Assembly: GCA_002816875.1 (NCBI GenBank)
Contig: MUCP01000012.1
Location: forward strand, 9,864-73,863
Length of the DNA: 64,000 nucleotides
Direction: 5' to 3'
Source: SAR202 cluster bacterium Io17-Chloro-G2
GTDB lineage: Bacteria > Chloroflexota > Dehalococcoidia > Lucifugimonadales > UBA3495
Both the position numbers and the translations under genes were made by a program. Below, piece after piece: positions 31,877 through 36,467 of this stretch (position 1 is its first letter; each line of letters begins with the position of its first letter). The notes beneath the pieces are model-generated. The model made no database searches. It was not told where the DNA came from and saw only the letters and a list, made by a program, of their open reading frames with translations.

Positions 31877-32098
31877 TTATGGCCTGCGGCCGTAGAAGCA
31901 GTCGTCGCAAAGAAACACGATAGCCAGCGCTTCCTCGTGGCTGCCGATGCGGCCGCACTGGGGCACTTGGCTTTCCTCGCTCCACGGTTGATGGAATTTC
32001 CCGCCACACAACTGGCATGACGCCTGGTGCACTTCATCCAGGGTGTCCCCGCAGATCACGCAGGTTTCGGCTTCCAATTCTTCATCCATGACCGGCAT
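31877..32098 (-). CDS. Small Cys-rich zinc-ribbon-like protein, overlapping the end of the CCA-enzyme gene
   Basis: About 70-73 aa. Contains CVICGD...CQLCGG...C...CDDC (four Cys pairs or sites). Candidate ATGs at 32098 and 32089. ATG 32089 overlaps the upstream TGA (ATGGATGA). Confidence 0.5.
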   Translation of the reverse strand: MPVMDEELEAETCVICGDTLDEVHQASCQLCGGKFHQPWSEESQVPQCGRIGSHEEALAIVFLCDDCFYGRRP

Positions 32099-33314
32099 CC
32101 CCAATAGCCTCGGCCCCCACGGGACCCACGATGGTATCAGCCATCAATTCCTGTACCAAACGCCGCCGGCCGGCATCGGCGCCAGCCCCGCCATCCAACC
32201 GCCCATCCAACACCTCATCGCGCAACCGGCCCAAGATGCGGCCGACCAGGGGTCCCGGAGGCACACCGAGCTGCAACAAGTCCCGTCCGTCCAACCCAGG
32301 TTTAACGTGCCGCAGCTCAGTCAAAAACCGGTGCAGCCCCTGATTGACCCAGGCGTCTTCGCTGGTCAAGCCCATGGCCGCCACGGCTACCACGGAAACG
32401 TCTTCCAGAAGGCGAACCAAGCGTGATGGAGAGATAGATTCATCATTCAATTCGGCCGCCATACCCTGAAGCCTGATGGAGTCGCGGACGATACGGCGCC
32501 AACCCTCGGGCATGTTCAGGCGGCCGATCAAGTCCTCCCCTTCCTGTTCGGAAAGGTCCGAGACCAACGCCGCCAGATATACCATCGGAATCTCCGCTTC
32601 GATTTCGGCGCCAATATCGCCGATACCGGCGGCCAACCGCTGTAGTTTTCCCAGATCGTTAAGGGCGGGATGTACCGCCTGCAAAACTTCCAGATCCAAG
32701 CAACGGGCGAACGCAGGTGCGGGATTTTCTTCTTCCAGGATCCGCTGGATCTCGTGGCGAAGCCGGTCCGGGCTCAGGACGGCAACAAGACCCTGATCCA
32801 CTGAGTTTTTTAGGTGGGCAAGGGTCTGTTGGTCGATACGAAAGTCCAGGCGTTGCTCGTAGCGGATTGCCCGGAATACCCGGGTGGGGTCGTCGATGAA
32901 GCTGCAGTCGTGGAGGGTGCGCACTACGCCCAGCCGCAGGTCTTCCAATCCTCTCCAATGATCCAGGACCTCAGCGGCATCTCCCGCCAATGGTATTGCC
33001 ATGGCGTTGATAGAGAAATCACGGCGGGCCAAATCGTCCCGAATGCCGCTGGGAGTCACCTGGGGCAAAGCGCCGGGGTGCGTATAAGTCTCCCGCCGGG
33101 CGGTCACCAAGTCGATTCGCGTGCCCCCGGCAATCACGGTGGCGGTGCCGAACCGGGGGTGAACGATGGTTTTGCCGGCCAATTCGGCGGCCACCCGCTG
33201 GGCCAGCGCCGGAGCGTCGCCTTCCACCGAGAAATCCAAGTCTTTGACGGGCCGCCCCAAAAGAGCGTCGCGAACCGGTCCGCCCACAAGATAAACGGGC
33301 GAGTGTTGGTCCAA
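32082..33314 (-). CDS. cca: CCA-adding tRNA nucleotidyltransferase/poly(A) polymerase family protein
   Basis: 410 aa. Contains YLVGGPVRDALLGRPVKDLDF head-domain motif. The frame stays open for 38 codons upstream of TTG 33314 with no ATG/GTG/TTG, and that stretch (NLEALDALRRCAL) still looks family-like, so the start is uncertain. Confidence 0.8.
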   Translation of the reverse strand: MDQHSPVYLVGGPVRDALLGRPVKDLDFSVEGDAPALAQRVAAELAGKTIVHPRFGTATVIAGGTRIDLVTARRETYTHPGALPQVTPSGIRDDLARRDFSINAMAIPLAGDAAEVLDHWRGLEDLRLGVVRTLHDCSFIDDPTRVFRAIRYEQRLDFRIDQQTLAHLKNSVDQGLVAVLSPDRLRHEIQRILEEENPAPAFARCLDLEVLQAVHPALNDLGKLQRLAAGIGDIGAEIEAEIPMVYLAALVSDLSEQEGEDLIGRLNMPEGWRRIVRDSIRLQGMAAELNDESISPSRLVRLLEDVSVVAVAAMGLTSEDAWVNQGLHRFLTELRHVKPGLDGRDLLQLGVPPGPLVGRILGRLRDEVLDGRLDGGAGADAGRRRLVQELMADTIVGPVGAEAIGDAGHG

Positions 33315-33434
33315 CGCGCAACGGCGAAGGGCATCTAATGCCTCTAGGTTGCCGCCGCCGGTGTTTCGCTGGATGAATCCCAGGGGGTCGCCGATGTGGT
33401 GGAGCTTGTCCGTGGAGGGCCTCCGGTGTCAAAC

Positions 33435-33443
33435 ATTATAGCA
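33435..33443 (-). promoter_or_regulatory. Extended -10 promoter candidate (TGcTATAAT) for the cca gene
   Basis: The minus strand reads tgctataat. There is no convincing -35 hexamer. Confidence 0.35.
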
Positions 33444-33535
33444 TAGGGGCGCTTCTGGCCTCTTGATTCCAGGCATATTCCACCCTTGCGCCGGCAGCCG
33501 GTCACGCCAATTCCAACAACCCTGATCTTATGGTT

Positions 33536-33563
33536 TTGACAACCCAATCACAGGTGGTAAAAT
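33536..33563 (+). promoter_or_regulatory. Sigma-70-like promoter candidate for the DsbA-like/rnc/TIR/ftsY operon
   Basis: TTGACA (33536-33541), 16-nt spacer, TAAAAT (33558-33563). Confidence 0.5.
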
Positions 33564-33623
33564 CTTTGCAGGCAATCGCCCAATCCGGCAATTGCCCATC
33601 ACACGACTGTAGGAGGCGCAACA

Positions 33624-34262
33624 ATGGTTGAGGCAGCATTCACCACCTACTACGATTTTCGTTGACCCTTCGTATACAATGCCGCCATGTGGCTGGCAAA
33701 AGTGGAATCGAGCACGGGGTCCAAGGTTGAAGTAGACTGGCAGCCCTTCGCCCTGGCCCAGGTCAACGCAGACAAAGATGCGGAACTAAAGGTCTGGGAA
33801 AGGCCGGATGTATTAGACGGGACCGATCCGATTTTCCTGGCCCACCGGTCGGGTCTGGCGGCCAAACGCCAGGGTAAAGAGGCCTTCGAGGCTTTCTTCA
33901 TCGCCCTGCTGAAGCAGCGCCACGAGGAAAAGGCCGACTTGAACGATCCCGACGTGATGAAGGCAGCGGCCACGACGGCCGGCTTGGACTTGGCTCGTTT
34001 TCTGGAAGACCAGGCCGACCCCGATCTACTCAAAGAGATTGGGGACAGCCACACCAAAGCGGTGGAAGAGTACGGCGCATTTGGGGTGCCCACATTTATC
34101 TTGCCCGGAGGCAAGACCGCTTTCGTGAAAATGTTCATACCTCCCGAAGAACAGGCGAGCGATATATACGACACCCTGACACATGTGATCAGCGAGTTTG
34201 ATCACGTAGGTGAAGTAAAGCGCCCGCAGCCGCCGTGGCCTCACGGAGTGATCAAGGGATAA
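33624..34262 (+). CDS. DsbA-family (FrnE/mycoredoxin-like) thioredoxin-fold protein with in-frame TGA at 33663-33665; candidate selenoprotein
   Basis: ATG 33624 is preceded by AGGAGG (33611-33616). Translation: MVEAAFTTYYDFR-TGA-PFVYNAAMWLAKVESS..., continuous with track ORF 33687-34262. The TGA sits where family members carry the CP(F/W)x redox Cys. Confidence 0.6.
33681..33697 (+). promoter_or_regulatory. SECIS-like hairpin
   Basis: GCCGCC-AUGU-GGCuGGC: 6 bp with one bulged U. It starts 15 nt after the TGA. Confidence 0.45.
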
Positions 34263-34265
34263 CAC

Positions 34266-34967
34266 GTGGCGAATCGGCTTCTAGAAGCGGATTTAGGCGT
34301 AAAGTTTCGTGAACCAGGGCTGCTCCAGCAAGCCCTGGTTCACCGTTCTTACCTCAACGAACAGGGCGGAAAGCCCTCGGACTCCTACGAACGGCTGGAA
34401 TTCCTGGGCGACGCAGTCATAGAACTGGCTGTGTCCACCCGGCTGTATGAGTTCTTGCCCAACCATTCCGAAGGCGACCTCACCAAGGCCCGCGCCACTT
34501 TGGTTTGCGGTGAAAGTCTGGCCGTGATCGCCCGCCGGCTGCGTCTAGGCGATCACGTCCTGTTGGGCAAGGGAGAGGAGGCCACCGGAGGCAGGGACAG
34601 AGAGTCCACTCTGGCCGCCACCATGGAAGCCGTCGTGGCCGCGGTATACCAGGATCAAGGCTTCGAAGCGGCTCGCAGCTTCGTTCTTCGCATCATGGCC
34701 CCGGAATTGGACCAATTCTTACTCCAAGGAACGGCGGCGGACAATCCCAAGTCCCGTCTCCAAGAACACATCCAGGGCCTGGGCCGCGCCACACCAAAGT
34801 ACCAACTTGCCTCAAGCACGGGGCCCGACCACGATCCCTGGTTTGAAGTGGAAGTCCTGGTGGAAAGCCAGGTGATCGGCAAAGGCCAAGGCGGGAAGAA
34901 GGCCGACGCCGAACGGGCGGCCGCCAACGACGCCCTGAACCGCATCGCGTCAGAACCAATCACCTAA
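34266..34967 (+). CDS. rnc: Ribonuclease III
   Basis: 233 aa. Contains ERLEFLGDAVIELAV catalytic signature and a C-terminal dsRBD-like segment. Confidence 0.95.
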   Translation: MANRLLEADLGVKFREPGLLQQALVHRSYLNEQGGKPSDSYERLEFLGDAVIELAVSTRLYEFLPNHSEGDLTKARATLVCGESLAVIARRLRLGDHVLLGKGEEATGGRDRESTLAATMEAVVAAVYQDQGFEAARSFVLRIMAPELDQFLLQGTAADNPKSRLQEHIQGLGRATPKYQLASSTGPDHDPWFEVEVLVESQVIGKGQGGKKADAERAAANDALNRIASEPIT

Positions 34968-34997: not shown

Positions 34998-36467
34998 ATG
35001 CCCCACCCACCACCCATGGCGTTCATGAGCTACGTGCGGTCCGACGACCAGCACGAGAACGGGCGTTTGACCCAGTTGCGGGAGCGCCTAAGCGCCGAAG
35101 TGCGGATGCAGACCGGGGAAGAGTTCCCGATCTTCCAAGACCGCGACGACATCCAGTGGGGCCAGAACTGGCGCCGCCGCATCGAAGAATCCGTCGACGA
35201 AGTCACTTTCTTCATCCCAATCATCACCCCTAGCTTTTTCCGGAGTGACGGCTGTTGCGATGAGCTCCGACAGTTCATCCAACGAGAGCTAGACCTTAAC
35301 CGGGACGACCTCATACTCCCTGTCTACTATGTCGATTGCCCTGTCCTGAATTCTCCCGAAGGGCGAGCAAACAACGATTTAGCCAGCGCGATAGCGAATC
35401 ATCAGTATACCGACTGGCGGGACCTTAGGTTTGAGCCCCTTACATCGCCGGATGTGGGTCGAATGTTTGCCAAGATGGCCGTCCAAATTCGGGACGCCTT
35501 GAACCGGGTACGCGATTCGCAACCGGCTGATATTGCCGCCGGTCCAACAGTTAACCTTAGCCTGCCTGACCCGGTAACCCAACCGGTACCGAACCTAGCA
35601 GAATCCTTAGCACAAATGGCAGAGGCTGCCCAAGGACCGTCTCCGAAGACTGAGACCCCCACCCGAATCGTAGACCCCATGGGCCGAGCCGATCACATCA
35701 CTATATCCGAGGCCATCCACGCGGCTGACCCCGGAGATAGGATTTTGGTCCGCCCTGGCCTCTACCAAGAGGGCCTGATAATCGACAAACCGTTGGAAAT
35801 AATCGGAGACGGCCCCCGTGACGACATTGTGGTGCAGGCGGTTAGAACTAATACACTATCCTTTCAAACGACCACAGGCAGAGTTTCTAACCTTAGTCTG
35901 CGCCAGACTAGCGGCAGTGGGTTTTGCGTGTACATAATTCAGGGATGGCTGTTGCTGGATAACTGCGACATCACAAGTGAGAGTCTGGCCTGTGTGGCTA
36001 TCCTCGGCGGCGCCGACCCCCGGCTTGTCCGTAACCGCATCCACGACGGGAACCGCAACGGAGTCTTTATCTACCAACGCGGCCTAGGGACCTTGGAAAA
36101 TAACGACATCTTTGGCAACGCATTTGCCGGTGTGGCGATTAGCAACTATGGCAATCCTGTTCTACGCCACAACCGTATCCACGACGGGAAAACGACTGGT
36201 ATCTCCGTGTATGACAACGGACTAGGCGCTTTGGAAGACAACGACATCTTCGGCAATATTTGGTCCGGCCTTTTAATCAGAAACGAAGGAAATCCCACCG
36301 TACGAGGGAACCGTATCAACAAGAATGGGTGCCACGGCGTATGTGTCATTGAAAGCGGCGGCGGCACAGTAGTAGACAACGACCTCCGGGACAACGCCCT
36401 TGGCGCATGGAGGATCTCAGAAGACAGTGAGCCCTTAGTCAAACGCGCCCGCAACCTGGAAGAATGA
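34998..36467 (+). CDS. TIR-domain protein fused to right-handed parallel beta-helix (PbH1/CASH-like) repeats
   Basis: 489 aa. Residues ~8-135, AFMSYVRSDD...IFQDRDDIQWGQNW...FFIPIITPSFFRSDGCCDELRQF, fit the bacterial TIR_2 pattern. Residues ~225-489 start with ITISEAIHAADPGDRILVRPGLYQEGLIIDKPLEIIG, followed by repeated GNxxxGVxIxNxGNPVLRxNRIHDG units. Confidence 0.75.
   Translation: MPHPPPMAFMSYVRSDDQHENGRLTQLRERLSAEVRMQTGEEFPIFQDRDDIQWGQNWRRRIEESVDEVTFFIPIITPSFFRSDGCCDELRQFIQRELDLNRDDLILPVYYVDCPVLNSPEGRANNDLASAIANHQYTDWRDLRFEPLTSPDVGRMFAKMAVQIRDALNRVRDSQPADIAAGPTVNLSLPDPVTQPVPNLAESLAQMAEAAQGPSPKTETPTRIVDPMGRADHITISEAIHAADPGDRILVRPGLYQEGLIIDKPLEIIGDGPRDDIVVQAVRTNTLSFQTTTGRVSNLSLRQTSGSGFCVYIIQGWLLLDNCDITSESLACVAILGGADPRLVRNRIHDGNRNGVFIYQRGLGTLENNDIFGNAFAGVAISNYGNPVLRHNRIHDGKTTGISVYDNGLGALEDNDIFGNIWSGLLIRNEGNPTVRGNRINKNGCHGVCVIESGGGTVVDNDLRDNALGAWRISEDSEPLVKRARNLEE

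What the first reader, a model, noticed from the sequence alone, without database searches (positions are those of the whole stretch)
33611..34262. An in-frame TGA sits at the redox-cysteine position of a DsbA-family gene: candidate selenoprotein missed by ORF calling
The track ORF starts at ATG 33687, which has no ribosome-binding site and yields a DsbA-like protein without its N-terminal active site. In the same frame, 63 nt upstream, ATG 33624 has a perfect AGGAGG 7 nt upstream and a TTGACA-N16-TAAAAT promoter about 60 nt further up. The reading is MVEAAFTTYYDFR-TGA-PFVYNAAMWLAKV. DsbA/FrnE/mycoredoxin-like proteins begin with a beta strand followed by (F/Y)xDxxCP(F/W)x(Y/W). The TGA therefore replaces exactly the nucleophilic Cys, giving a U-P-F-V single-Sec variant. 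A bulged 6-bp hairpin (33681-33697) starts 15 nt after the TGA. The alternative explanation is a recent nonsense mutation.
Basis: partly seen in the sequence, partly recalled or inferred. Interest (0 to 1): 0.7.

Follow-up and report, generated by a model that had tools for sequence, protein, structure and literature searches.

The report
Selenocysteine DsbA-like gene, mis-called as truncated
The in-frame TGA is almost certainly a selenocysteine codon at the active site of a small cytoplasmic redox protein that gene callers truncate across the SAR202/Dehalococcoidia bacteria; it is real and well supported, but it belongs to a kind of selenoprotein that is already known.

Summary
ATG 33624 has AGGAGG 7 nt upstream, an in-frame TGA lies at 33663-33665, and the called ORF starts at ATG 33687.

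The TGA is not a recent mutation. All 101 related loci that carry this form have TGA at the same codon. These include 80 species-representative Dehalococcoidia/SAR202 genomes, and the coding sequences are only 60-100% identical at the nucleotide level.

Codons on both sides of the TGA keep their amino acids while third positions drift, so translation runs through the TGA. Ten full-length homologs have Cys exactly there (FYDFR-C-PFVYNA), and one of them sits in the same gene neighbourhood.

A 7-bp hairpin lies 14 nt after the TGA (33680-33698). It is kept in every TGA form through compensatory changes (UA/CG and GC/AU, with no broken pairs). The five Cys forms examined have only a weaker 5-bp hairpin.

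TGA is otherwise the commonest normal stop codon here.

The protein is a DsbA-like thioredoxin fold closest to the single-Cys protein DR_2335 (PDB 7DK9). Sec is its only redox residue.

The Sec machinery could not be checked in the same genome. Published work lists Dehalococcoidia MAGs among the bacteria richest in selenoproteins.

Verdict: interpretation supported; a new member of a known kind.

The parts
33536..33563 (+). Sigma-70-type promoter-like site, TTGACA-N16-(TG)TAAAAT
   Evidence: 11 of 12 matches and the only hit in 33250-34350 (shuffles gave 0.4 on average). A similar TTGACA-N17-TACAAT lies upstream of the Cys ortholog in L084. Function is inferred, not shown.
33611..33616 (+). 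Shine-Dalgarno sequence AGGAGG, 7 nt before the true start codon
   Evidence: An SD-like motif lies within 20 nt of the equivalent start codon in 99 of 101 related loci.
33624..34262 (+). Full-length gene of 212 codons plus stop: a DsbA-like thioredoxin-fold protein with Sec at codon 14
   Evidence: PF01323 at 62.7 bits; PF22234 Rv2466c-like at 41.3 bits. In relatives the start codon 13 codons before the TGA is ATG in 80 loci and GTG in 21. PDB 7DK9 matches at E = 6e-19.
33663..33665 (+). In-frame TGA, the candidate Sec codon, in the motif D-F-R-U-P-F-V
   Evidence: TGA is present in 101 of 101 loci of this form. Ten full-length homologs have Cys (TGT or TGC) at the same codon. In the AlphaFold model of a Cys ortholog, the equivalent Cys14 caps helix alpha-1 directly after strand beta-1.
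33660..33666 (+). Invariant local context CGU-UGA-C
   Evidence: the Arg codon before the TGA is CGT in all 89 distinct TGA sequences. CGT makes up only about 10% of Arg codons in window genes, other invariant Arg sites in this gene vary, and Cys forms use CGC in 4 of 5 cases. The base after the TGA is always C. A role in recoding efficiency is inferred.
33680..33698 (+). SECIS-like hairpin: 7 bp, a bulged U at 33694 and an AUGU loop at 33687-33690, starting 14 nt after the TGA
   Evidence: Pair 18-36 is UA in 56 sequences and CG in 21, with none unpaired. Pair 22-31 is GC in 45 and AU in 32, with none unpaired. All 22 distinct TGA-form variants fold to a 7-bp stem (-8.4 to -10.3 kcal/mol), against 5 bp (-4.5 to -7.0 kcal/mol) in the 5 Cys forms.
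33687..34262 (+). ORF as called by standard gene finders (191 aa): an N-terminally truncated artefact lacking beta-1 and the active site
   Evidence: Of the 120 best database homologs, 109 are similarly truncated calls of 176-196 aa. One cluster (P0033, 147 members) was called with TGA read as W.
34266..34967 (+). RNase III gene (rnc) starting 4 nt after the stop; a conserved downstream neighbour that is probably co-transcribed (context only)
   Evidence: the order DSBA then Ribonuclease_3 is conserved in Sec-form and Cys-form loci.

Best explanation
The gene at 33624-34262 encodes a 212-residue cytoplasmic DsbA-like thioredoxin-fold protein, and codon 14 (UGA, 33663-33665) is read as selenocysteine.

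**How the recoding works.** A 19-nt hairpin starts 14 nt downstream of the UGA (33680-33698) and acts as the bacterial SECIS element. It would recruit SelB carrying GTP and Sec-tRNA(Sec) to the ribosome paused at the UGA. An invariant CGU-UGA-C context may favour insertion over termination.

**How the protein works.** The Sec sits at the N-terminal cap of helix alpha-1, directly after strand beta-1, in the motif D-F-R-U-P-F-V. That is the place of the nucleophilic Cys in CxxC proteins. The protein has no resolving Cys and no other Cys at all. Catalysis must therefore use a single selenol that forms a selenenylsulfide (or selenenic acid) with a substrate. An external thiol, either a low-molecular-weight thiol or a partner reductase, would then regenerate it. 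This is a monothiol-type thiol/disulfide oxidoreductase or thiol-transferase mechanism.

**Shown here:** conservation of the TGA, in-frame translation across it, Cys orthologs, hairpin covariation, the fold, and the residue position.

**Inferred:** SelB-dependent Sec insertion, the role of the context, the chemistry, and the physiological substrate.
For: 1. TGA is conserved in 80 of 80 Dehalococcoidia/SAR202 species loci and in all further loci of this form. That is 101 loci and 89 distinct sequences, with coding-sequence identity of 60-100% (median 70%).
2. Codons -3 to -1 and +1 to +6 are invariant at the amino-acid level but vary at third positions; Val at +3 uses all four codons. The frame is therefore translated on both sides of the TGA.
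3. Ten homologs have Cys at that codon. The Cys-form locus L084 has the same gene order as the window. An NJ tree suggests at least 2 Sec/Cys switches.
4. The hairpin shows two perfectly covarying pairs, and pair 18-36 switched several times on the tree. Synonymous sites inside the stem are frozen. The stem is weaker in Cys forms.
5. TGA is the commonest ordinary stop codon: 16 of 37 long ORFs in the window and 358 of 705 in related loci. The codon is therefore not reassigned genome-wide.
6. The DSBA Pfam score rises by 18 bits with the N-terminal extension.
7. The closest structure, DR2335 (7DK9), has its single Cys aligned to the TGA. The AlphaFold model of the Cys ortholog (pLDDT 89) places that residue at the cap of helix alpha-1.
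8. BSepDB lists only species in which it identified SelA, SelB and SelD. It ranks two Dehalococcoidia MAGs, with 49 and 46 selenoprotein genes, among the ten richest bacteria (PMC13326102). DsbA-like selenoproteins are an established family (PMC1088965, PMC13188914).
Against: - No selA, selB, selD or tRNA-Sec lies in the 64-kb window or in about 1.9 Mb of related loci. The selB-like hits were EF-Tu and BipA. The machinery is therefore not shown for this genome.
- The hairpin loop (AUGU) has its G at the third position. The published consensus places G at the first or second loop position (PMC13582414). Only the GUGU variants meet that rule.
- RNAalifold on the ungapped alignment did not recover the stem, because the bulge shifts register between clades.
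- No Rfam family matches and no NCBIfam selenoprotein model matches.
- Much of the hairpin sequence is also constrained by conserved residues (M/V-W-L).
- There is no experimental evidence of selenium incorporation.
Confidence: 0.88

Rival explanations
1. Recent nonsense mutation or pseudogene: the TGA inactivates a formerly Cys-containing gene, and the downstream ORF is a remnant.
For: A single window cannot exclude this. The called ORF lacks a ribosome-binding site.
Against: TGA is present at the same codon in 101 of 101 loci from at least 80 species, down to 60% nucleotide identity. There is purifying selection on both sides, a conserved start codon and a conserved SD.
Confidence: 0.01
2. 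Two cistrons: a 13-residue leader peptide ends at the TGA, and translation restarts at ATG or GTG 33687. The product would be a 191-aa protein without the active-site motif, and the hairpin would serve coupling or regulation.
For: Codon +8 is always ATG or GTG, both possible start codons, in TGA forms. Gene callers choose it.
Against: - The six codons between the TGA and that codon (P-F-V-Y-N-A) are invariant at the amino-acid level with free synonymous change. They would be untranslated under this model.
- The 13 upstream codons are homologous to the N-terminus of the Cys forms and to beta-1 of the DSBA profile.
- A product starting at residue 22 would lack beta-1 and the first turns of alpha-1.
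- There is no SD before 33687, and the start codon would be buried in the hairpin loop.
Confidence: 0.02
3. The UGA is recoded, but to an amino acid other than Sec. One route is Cys delivered by a tRNA(Sec)-like tRNA(Cys) with a UCA anticodon and SelB. Another is Trp or Gly by near-cognate read-through of the leaky UGA-C context.
For: The Sec machinery is not shown in this genome. SelB-dependent Cys insertion at UGA has been described in the literature (Vargas-Rodriguez et al. 2018, cited in PMC13582414). UGA followed by C is a weak termination context (own knowledge).
Against: - Trp or Gly at the catalytic Cys position would inactivate the protein, yet the gene is under strong purifying selection.
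- Holding a UGA plus a SECIS-like hairpin for this long only to insert Cys is unparsimonious when TGT and TGC forms exist.
- Dehalococcoidia MAGs are reported to carry SelA, SelB and SelD and dozens of selenoproteins (PMC13326102).
Confidence: 0.06

Closest known systems
DsbA-like selenoproteins (Zhang, Fomenko and Gladyshev 2005, Sargasso Sea; 'DsbA-like protein form 1', PF01323, motif UxxC)
   Same: Both have the PF01323 DsbA-like thioredoxin fold. Sec replaces the N-terminal nucleophilic Cys, a bacterial SECIS lies just downstream, and Cys homologs are widespread (PMC1088965, PMC13188914).
   Different: Form 1 keeps the resolving Cys (UxxC) and was assigned to COG2761 (FrnE-like). This protein reads U-P-F-V and has no Cys anywhere, so a dithiol/selenol-thiol exchange within the motif is impossible.
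'DsbA-like protein form 2', PF01323, motif DxxUP (review PMC13188914, citing Peng et al. [quoted passage not shown]
   Same: The motif matches exactly: D11-F-R-U14-P15, in a PF01323 domain with a single Sec.
   Different: I could not retrieve the exemplar sequence. Its database name suggests a different, possibly longer or fused, protein. Whether it is the same family as the SAR202 gene was not tested.
DR_2335 of Deinococcus radiodurans (PDB 7DK9; C24S mutant 7DKA): a single-Cys cytoplasmic DsbA-like protein
   Same: It is the best match by sequence and by fold (E = 6e-19; Foldseek TM 0.77; 33% identity). It has the same F-D-F-x-C-P-[FY] motif with one conserved Cys aligned to the TGA, and a shared C-terminal R-R/K-P-x-P element.
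   Different: It uses Cys, not Sec, and comes from a different phylum. No function or expression data are reported for it (PMC8945050, PMC6300522), so it gives no functional transfer.
Rv2466c (mycothiol-dependent reductase of M. tuberculosis), and the kappa-class GST / HCCA isomerase / FrnE / DsbM group of cytosolic DsbA-like proteins
   Same: They share a cytosolic DsbA-like fold. PF22234 scores 41.3 bits against a cut-off of 27. Foldseek gives E of about 1e-6 to 1e-7 and TM 0.66-0.70. These proteins depend on an external low-molecular-weight thiol.
   Different: Rv2466c has CPWC with a resolving Cys. Kappa GST uses Ser. Identity is only about 18-20%.

Membership tests
Bacterial selenoprotein gene (Sec-UGA recoding) | In-frame UGA conserved among orthologs, with coding conservation on both sides | tested here: met
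   All 101 loci have TGA. Residues -3 to -1 and +1 to +6 are invariant with synonymous variation. The start codon and SD are conserved.
Bacterial selenoprotein gene (Sec-UGA recoding) | Homologs with Cys aligned to the UGA | tested here: met
   Ten 210-aa homologs have FYDFRCPFVYNA. Their codons are TGT or TGC. One is syntenic with the window.
Bacterial selenoprotein gene (Sec-UGA recoding) | SECIS stem-loop immediately downstream of the UGA, with the apical loop about 16-37 nt from the UGA | tested here: met
   A 7-bp hairpin lies at +18 to +36, with the loop 21 nt after the UGA. It has two covarying pairs and none broken, and it is stronger in TGA forms than in Cys forms.
Bacterial selenoprotein gene (Sec-UGA recoding) | [quoted passage not shown] | tested here: inconclusive
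   The loop is GUGU in 37 of 89 distinct sequences, which meets the rule. It is AUGU or AUGUG in the rest, including the window, with G at the third position. bSECISearch was not available.
Bacterial selenoprotein gene (Sec-UGA recoding) | selA, selB, selD and tRNA-Sec present in the same genome | not testable with these tools
   None is present in the window or in related loci. The only support is class-level literature (PMC13326102).
Bacterial selenoprotein gene (Sec-UGA recoding) | UGA is otherwise a stop codon in the organism | tested here: met
   TGA ends 16 of 37 long ORFs in the window and 358 of 705 in related loci.
DsbA-like thioredoxin domain (Pfam PF01323) | Profile match above the gathering score, and a thioredoxin fold with a helical insertion | tested here: met
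   The score is 62.7 bits against a cut-off of 25.6. The AlphaFold model of the Cys ortholog has pLDDT 89.2. The top 50 Foldseek PDB matches listed are DsbA-like thioredoxin-fold proteins (DsbA, FrnE, Rv2466c, YjbH, kappa GST, HCCA isomerase and similar).
Classical DsbA/FrnE dithiol oxidoreductases | CxxC motif with a resolving second Cys | tested here: not met
   The motif is U-P-F-V. The window protein has no Cys anywhere, and no other Cys column is conserved.
DsbA-like selenoprotein form 2 (DxxUP) | DxxUP motif in a PF01323 domain | tested here: met
   The motif is D11-F-R-U14-P15.
DR_2335-like single-Cys DsbA-like proteins | A single conserved Cys at the alpha-1 cap, plus significant sequence and fold similarity | tested here: met
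   phmmer gives E = 6e-19 over residues 8-203, with the Cys aligned to the TGA position. Foldseek gives E = 9e-13 and TM 0.77.
Rv2466c-like (PF22234) | Profile match above the cut-off, plus a CPWC redox pair | tested here: not met
   The profile scores 41.3 bits against a cut-off of 27, but the second Cys is absent.

The most novel reading that the evidence does not exclude
This may be a distinct subfamily that is not yet catalogued. It would be a DR_2335-type DsbA-like protein that uses one selenol and no cysteine at all, and it is fixed across the abundant SAR202/Dehalococcoidia lineage. It would carry its own minimal recoding signal: an invariant CGU-UGA-C context plus a 19-nt hairpin whose loop contains the codon that gene callers mistake for the start. 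If so, it offers a compact natural SECIS and a clean single-selenol model enzyme for a fold whose Cys version has no known function.
Probability: 0.3. Interest if true: 0.5.

Novelty: new member of a known kind. Interest (0 to 1): 0.4.

Why it matters
**Annotation.** In public databases the gene is systematically truncated. Of the 120 closest database entries, 109 start after the TGA, and one cluster of 147 sequences was translated with TGA read as Trp. The active site of a widely conserved SAR202 protein is therefore invisible in annotation. Correcting it adds one selenoprotein per genome across a very abundant group of ocean and groundwater bacteria.

**Biology.** A DsbA-like protein whose only redox residue is Sec is a useful natural case for asking what selenium buys over sulfur in a monothiol mechanism. 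Sec and Cys orthologs exist side by side in the same genomic context.

**Limits.** DsbA-like selenoproteins and selenoprotein-rich Dehalococcoidia are both already documented, so this extends known biology and does not overturn it.

Tried and rejected
- **Sec machinery in the held sequence.** ARAGORN and Rfam on the window found only tRNA-Thr. I ran tblastn with E. coli SelA, SelB and SelD, plus ARAGORN, on the window and on 81 loci. The only hits were EF-Tu (L010) and BipA (L027, L031).
- **Other selenoprotein genes.** I scanned the window and about 1.7 Mb of related loci for further TGA read-through candidates using a codon-usage score. Only the DsbA-like gene passed in the window. Hits in the loci were ordinary in-frame neighbouring genes.
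- **RNAalifold on the 82-sequence alignment.** It returned a weak alternative fold (-1.0 kcal/mol), because the bulge changes register between clades. I replaced it with explicit pair counting and per-sequence folding.
- **Rfam at E up to 10 around the site.** Only chance matches appeared.
- **NCBIfam.** No model matched.
- **Metagenome scan with a Cys-form query.** I hoped to collect many Cys-form DNAs, but it returned 18 loci; the 15 that cover the site all have TGA. Cys-form DNA came from five exact look-ups instead.
- **Outer stem predicted for the window alone** (33664-33672 with 33709-33721). The downstream arm is not conserved in relatives, so I do not count it as part of the element.
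- **Literature on 7DK9 / DR_2335.** No functional data were found.

Full report
**1. The observation**

- AGGAGG lies at 33611-33616, followed by 7 nt and ATG at 33624.
- Thirteen sense codons follow (MVEAAFTTYYDFR), then TGA at 33663-33665, then PFVYNAA.
- ATG at 33687 begins the 191-codon ORF that a standard ORF list reports, and TAA at 34260-34262 ends it.
- A promoter-like TTGACA-N16-TAAAAT lies at 33536-33563. It matches 11 of 12 positions and is the only hit in the 1.1-kb region scanned.
- No Shine-Dalgarno sequence precedes ATG 33687.

With Cys written in place of the TGA, the Pfam DSBA (PF01323) score rises from 44.3 to 62.7 bits. The match then begins at profile position 4 instead of position 29. 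The upstream 21 codons are therefore part of the domain.

**2. Is the TGA an accident?**

No. A protein search found 401 relatives. Of the 120 best, 109 are 176-196 aa long and begin just after the TGA position, as MWLAKV... or MYNAAVWL... Ten are 210 aa long and read FYDFR-C-PFVYNA, with Cys exactly where the window has TGA. One 210-aa cluster of 147 members shows W there. Its DNA has TGA, so a gene caller used a code in which TGA means Trp.

A scan of one genome per species returned 80 loci, all from Dehalococcoidia, Chloroflexota or SAR202 MAGs. Every one has TGA at that codon and an ATG or GTG 13 codons upstream. Fifteen further metagenome loci that cover the site also have TGA.

Over 101 loci (89 distinct sequences) the amino acids at codons -3 to -1 and +1 to +6 never change, while third positions vary freely. 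Val at +3 uses all four codons. An SD-like motif precedes the upstream start in 99 of 101 loci. The coding sequences are 60-100% identical at the nucleotide level, with a median of 70%. This pattern means the frame is translated on both sides of a TGA that has been kept for a long time. It excludes a recent nonsense mutation, and it also excludes a genuine start at Met22.

**3. Is TGA reassigned?**

No. TGA ends 16 of the 37 long non-overlapping ORFs in the window and 358 of 705 in the related loci. It is the commonest stop codon in both sets.

**4. The RNA element**

A hairpin starts fourteen nucleotides after the TGA, at 33680-33698: UGCCGCC-AUGU-GGC(U)GGCA. It has 7 bp and one bulged U.

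On the 82-sequence alignment, two pairs covary.
- The pair between alignment columns 18 and 36 is U-A in 56 distinct sequences and C-G in 21, and is never unpaired. Both columns are third codon positions.
- The pair between columns 22 and 31 is G-C in 45 and A-U in 32, and is never unpaired. Here GCC changed to AAC together with a synonymous CUG to UUG.
- The observed covariation score was reached in none of 500 shuffles, and it falls when the 3' partner is slid.

Where the middle of the stem seems broken in one register, the sequence pairs in a neighbouring register because the bulge moves. Folding each variant alone gives a 7-bp stem for all 22 distinct TGA-form variants, at -8.4 to -10.3 kcal/mol. 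The five Cys-form genes fold only to a different 5-bp stem, at -4.5 to -7.0 kcal/mol.

On an NJ tree built from the rest of the gene, the UA/CG switch needs about 4-6 changes. The GC/AU switch marks one large clade. Synonymous sites inside the stem are frozen, including the third positions of codons +7 and +10.

Position and size fit a bacterial SECIS: the loop begins 21 nt after the UGA. One published rule, G at loop position 1 or 2 (PMC13582414), is met only by the GUGU variants. The window's AUGU loop has G at position 3. No Rfam model matches. The ATG that gene callers take as the start is the first three bases of the loop.

**5. Local context**

The Arg codon before the TGA is CGT in all 89 distinct TGA sequences. 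CGT accounts for only about 10% of Arg codons in eight window genes, and two other invariant Arg sites of this same gene use CGC, CGG, CGT and CGA. Cys forms use CGC in 4 of 5 cases. The base after the TGA is always C. I read CGU-UGA-C as a selected recoding context. That is an inference.

**6. The protein**
- The closest solved structure by sequence is 7DK9 (E = 6e-19), which is DR2335 of Deinococcus radiodurans. Its motif FDFL-C-PYAW aligns its single Cys with the TGA, and the depositors also solved the C24S mutant.
- An AlphaFold model of the syntenic Cys ortholog P0057 (pLDDT 89.2) has beta-1 at residues 6-10, Cys14 at the cap, and helix alpha-1 at residues 15-31. This is the canonical nucleophile position.
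- Foldseek ranks DR2335 first (TM 0.77). Rv2466c, YjbH, kappa-class GST, HCCA isomerase, FrnE and DsbM follow, and all are cytosolic DsbA-like proteins.
- The window protein has no Cys at all, and no other Cys column is conserved. I saw no N-terminal signal-like segment when reading the sequence, but I did not run a predictor.
- DR_2335 is described as a predicted cytoplasmic DsbA-like protein with a single conserved Cys and no functional data (PMC8945050, PMC6300522).

The most likely mechanism is therefore a single-selenol, monothiol-type oxidoreductase or thiol-transferase that an external thiol regenerates. The substrate is unknown.

Gene context gives little help. The order CCA-adding enzyme (divergent), then DSBA, rnc, ftsY and DUF2298 is conserved in both Sec and Cys forms. 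In one Cys-form contig the gene sits between a peroxiredoxin and an OsmC gene, which hints at oxidative-stress defence.

**7. The open point**

The Sec machinery was not found in the window or in the loci held. The selB-like hits are EF-Tu and BipA. I could not reach the rest of any genome.

The support is indirect. BSepDB catalogues selenoproteins only in species where it identified SelA, SelB and SelD. It lists Dehalococcoidia bacterium UBA1141 (49 selenoprotein genes) and a second Dehalococcoidia MAG (46) among the ten richest bacteria (PMC13326102).

**8. Comparison with what is known**

DsbA-like selenoproteins were first reported from the Sargasso Sea with a UxxC motif (PMC1088965). A 2026 review also lists a 'form 2' with motif DxxUP in PF01323 (PMC13188914). 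The window gene has D-F-R-U-P, so it fits form 2 by motif. I could not compare it with the exemplar sequence. It fails the CxxC/UxxC criterion of form 1 and of classical DsbA and FrnE.

I therefore file it as a new member of a known kind. It is possibly already present in BSepDB, and it is clearly mis-annotated in the general databases.

**9. Verdict**

Interest is moderate. The case is solid and wide-reaching for annotation, with neat covariation evidence, but a selenoprotein specialist would not be surprised by it.

Noticed in passing
window 33660-33666: The Arg codon just before the TGA is CGT in all 89 distinct TGA-form sequences. CGT is a minor Arg codon here (about 10%), and Cys-form orthologs mostly use CGC. 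The base after the TGA is always C. This suggests a selected CGU-UGA-C context for Sec insertion.
   Followed up: partly
window 34998-36467 (+): A 489-aa protein with TIR_2 plus NosD/beta-helix domains sits between rnc and ftsY. In the relatives L084 and L108-L111, rnc is followed directly by ftsY. It therefore looks like a lineage-specific insertion, possibly a defence gene.
   Followed up: no
L085 313-945 (protein cluster P0033, 147 members): A public gene call translated the same TGA as Trp, apparently using genetic code 4 or 25. The result is a full-length but wrong protein with 'RWPF' at the active site.
   Followed up: yes
L105 4-1810: In one Cys-form contig the DsbA-like gene is flanked by an AhpC/Redoxin-family gene and an OsmC-family gene. 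This is a peroxide-defence neighbourhood that the Sec-form loci do not share.
   Followed up: no
window 31877-32104 (-): A small Cys-rich ORF of 73-75 aa, with CxxC...CxxC...CxxC-like spacing, overlaps the 3' end of the CCA-adding enzyme gene. It is called as a gene in the relatives too (for example L001 8191-8412), and it has no Pfam hit.
   Followed up: no
window 33687-33689: The start codon chosen by ORF callers for the truncated gene is the first three bases of the apical loop of the SECIS-like hairpin. In other clades the same codon is GTG.
   Followed up: yes
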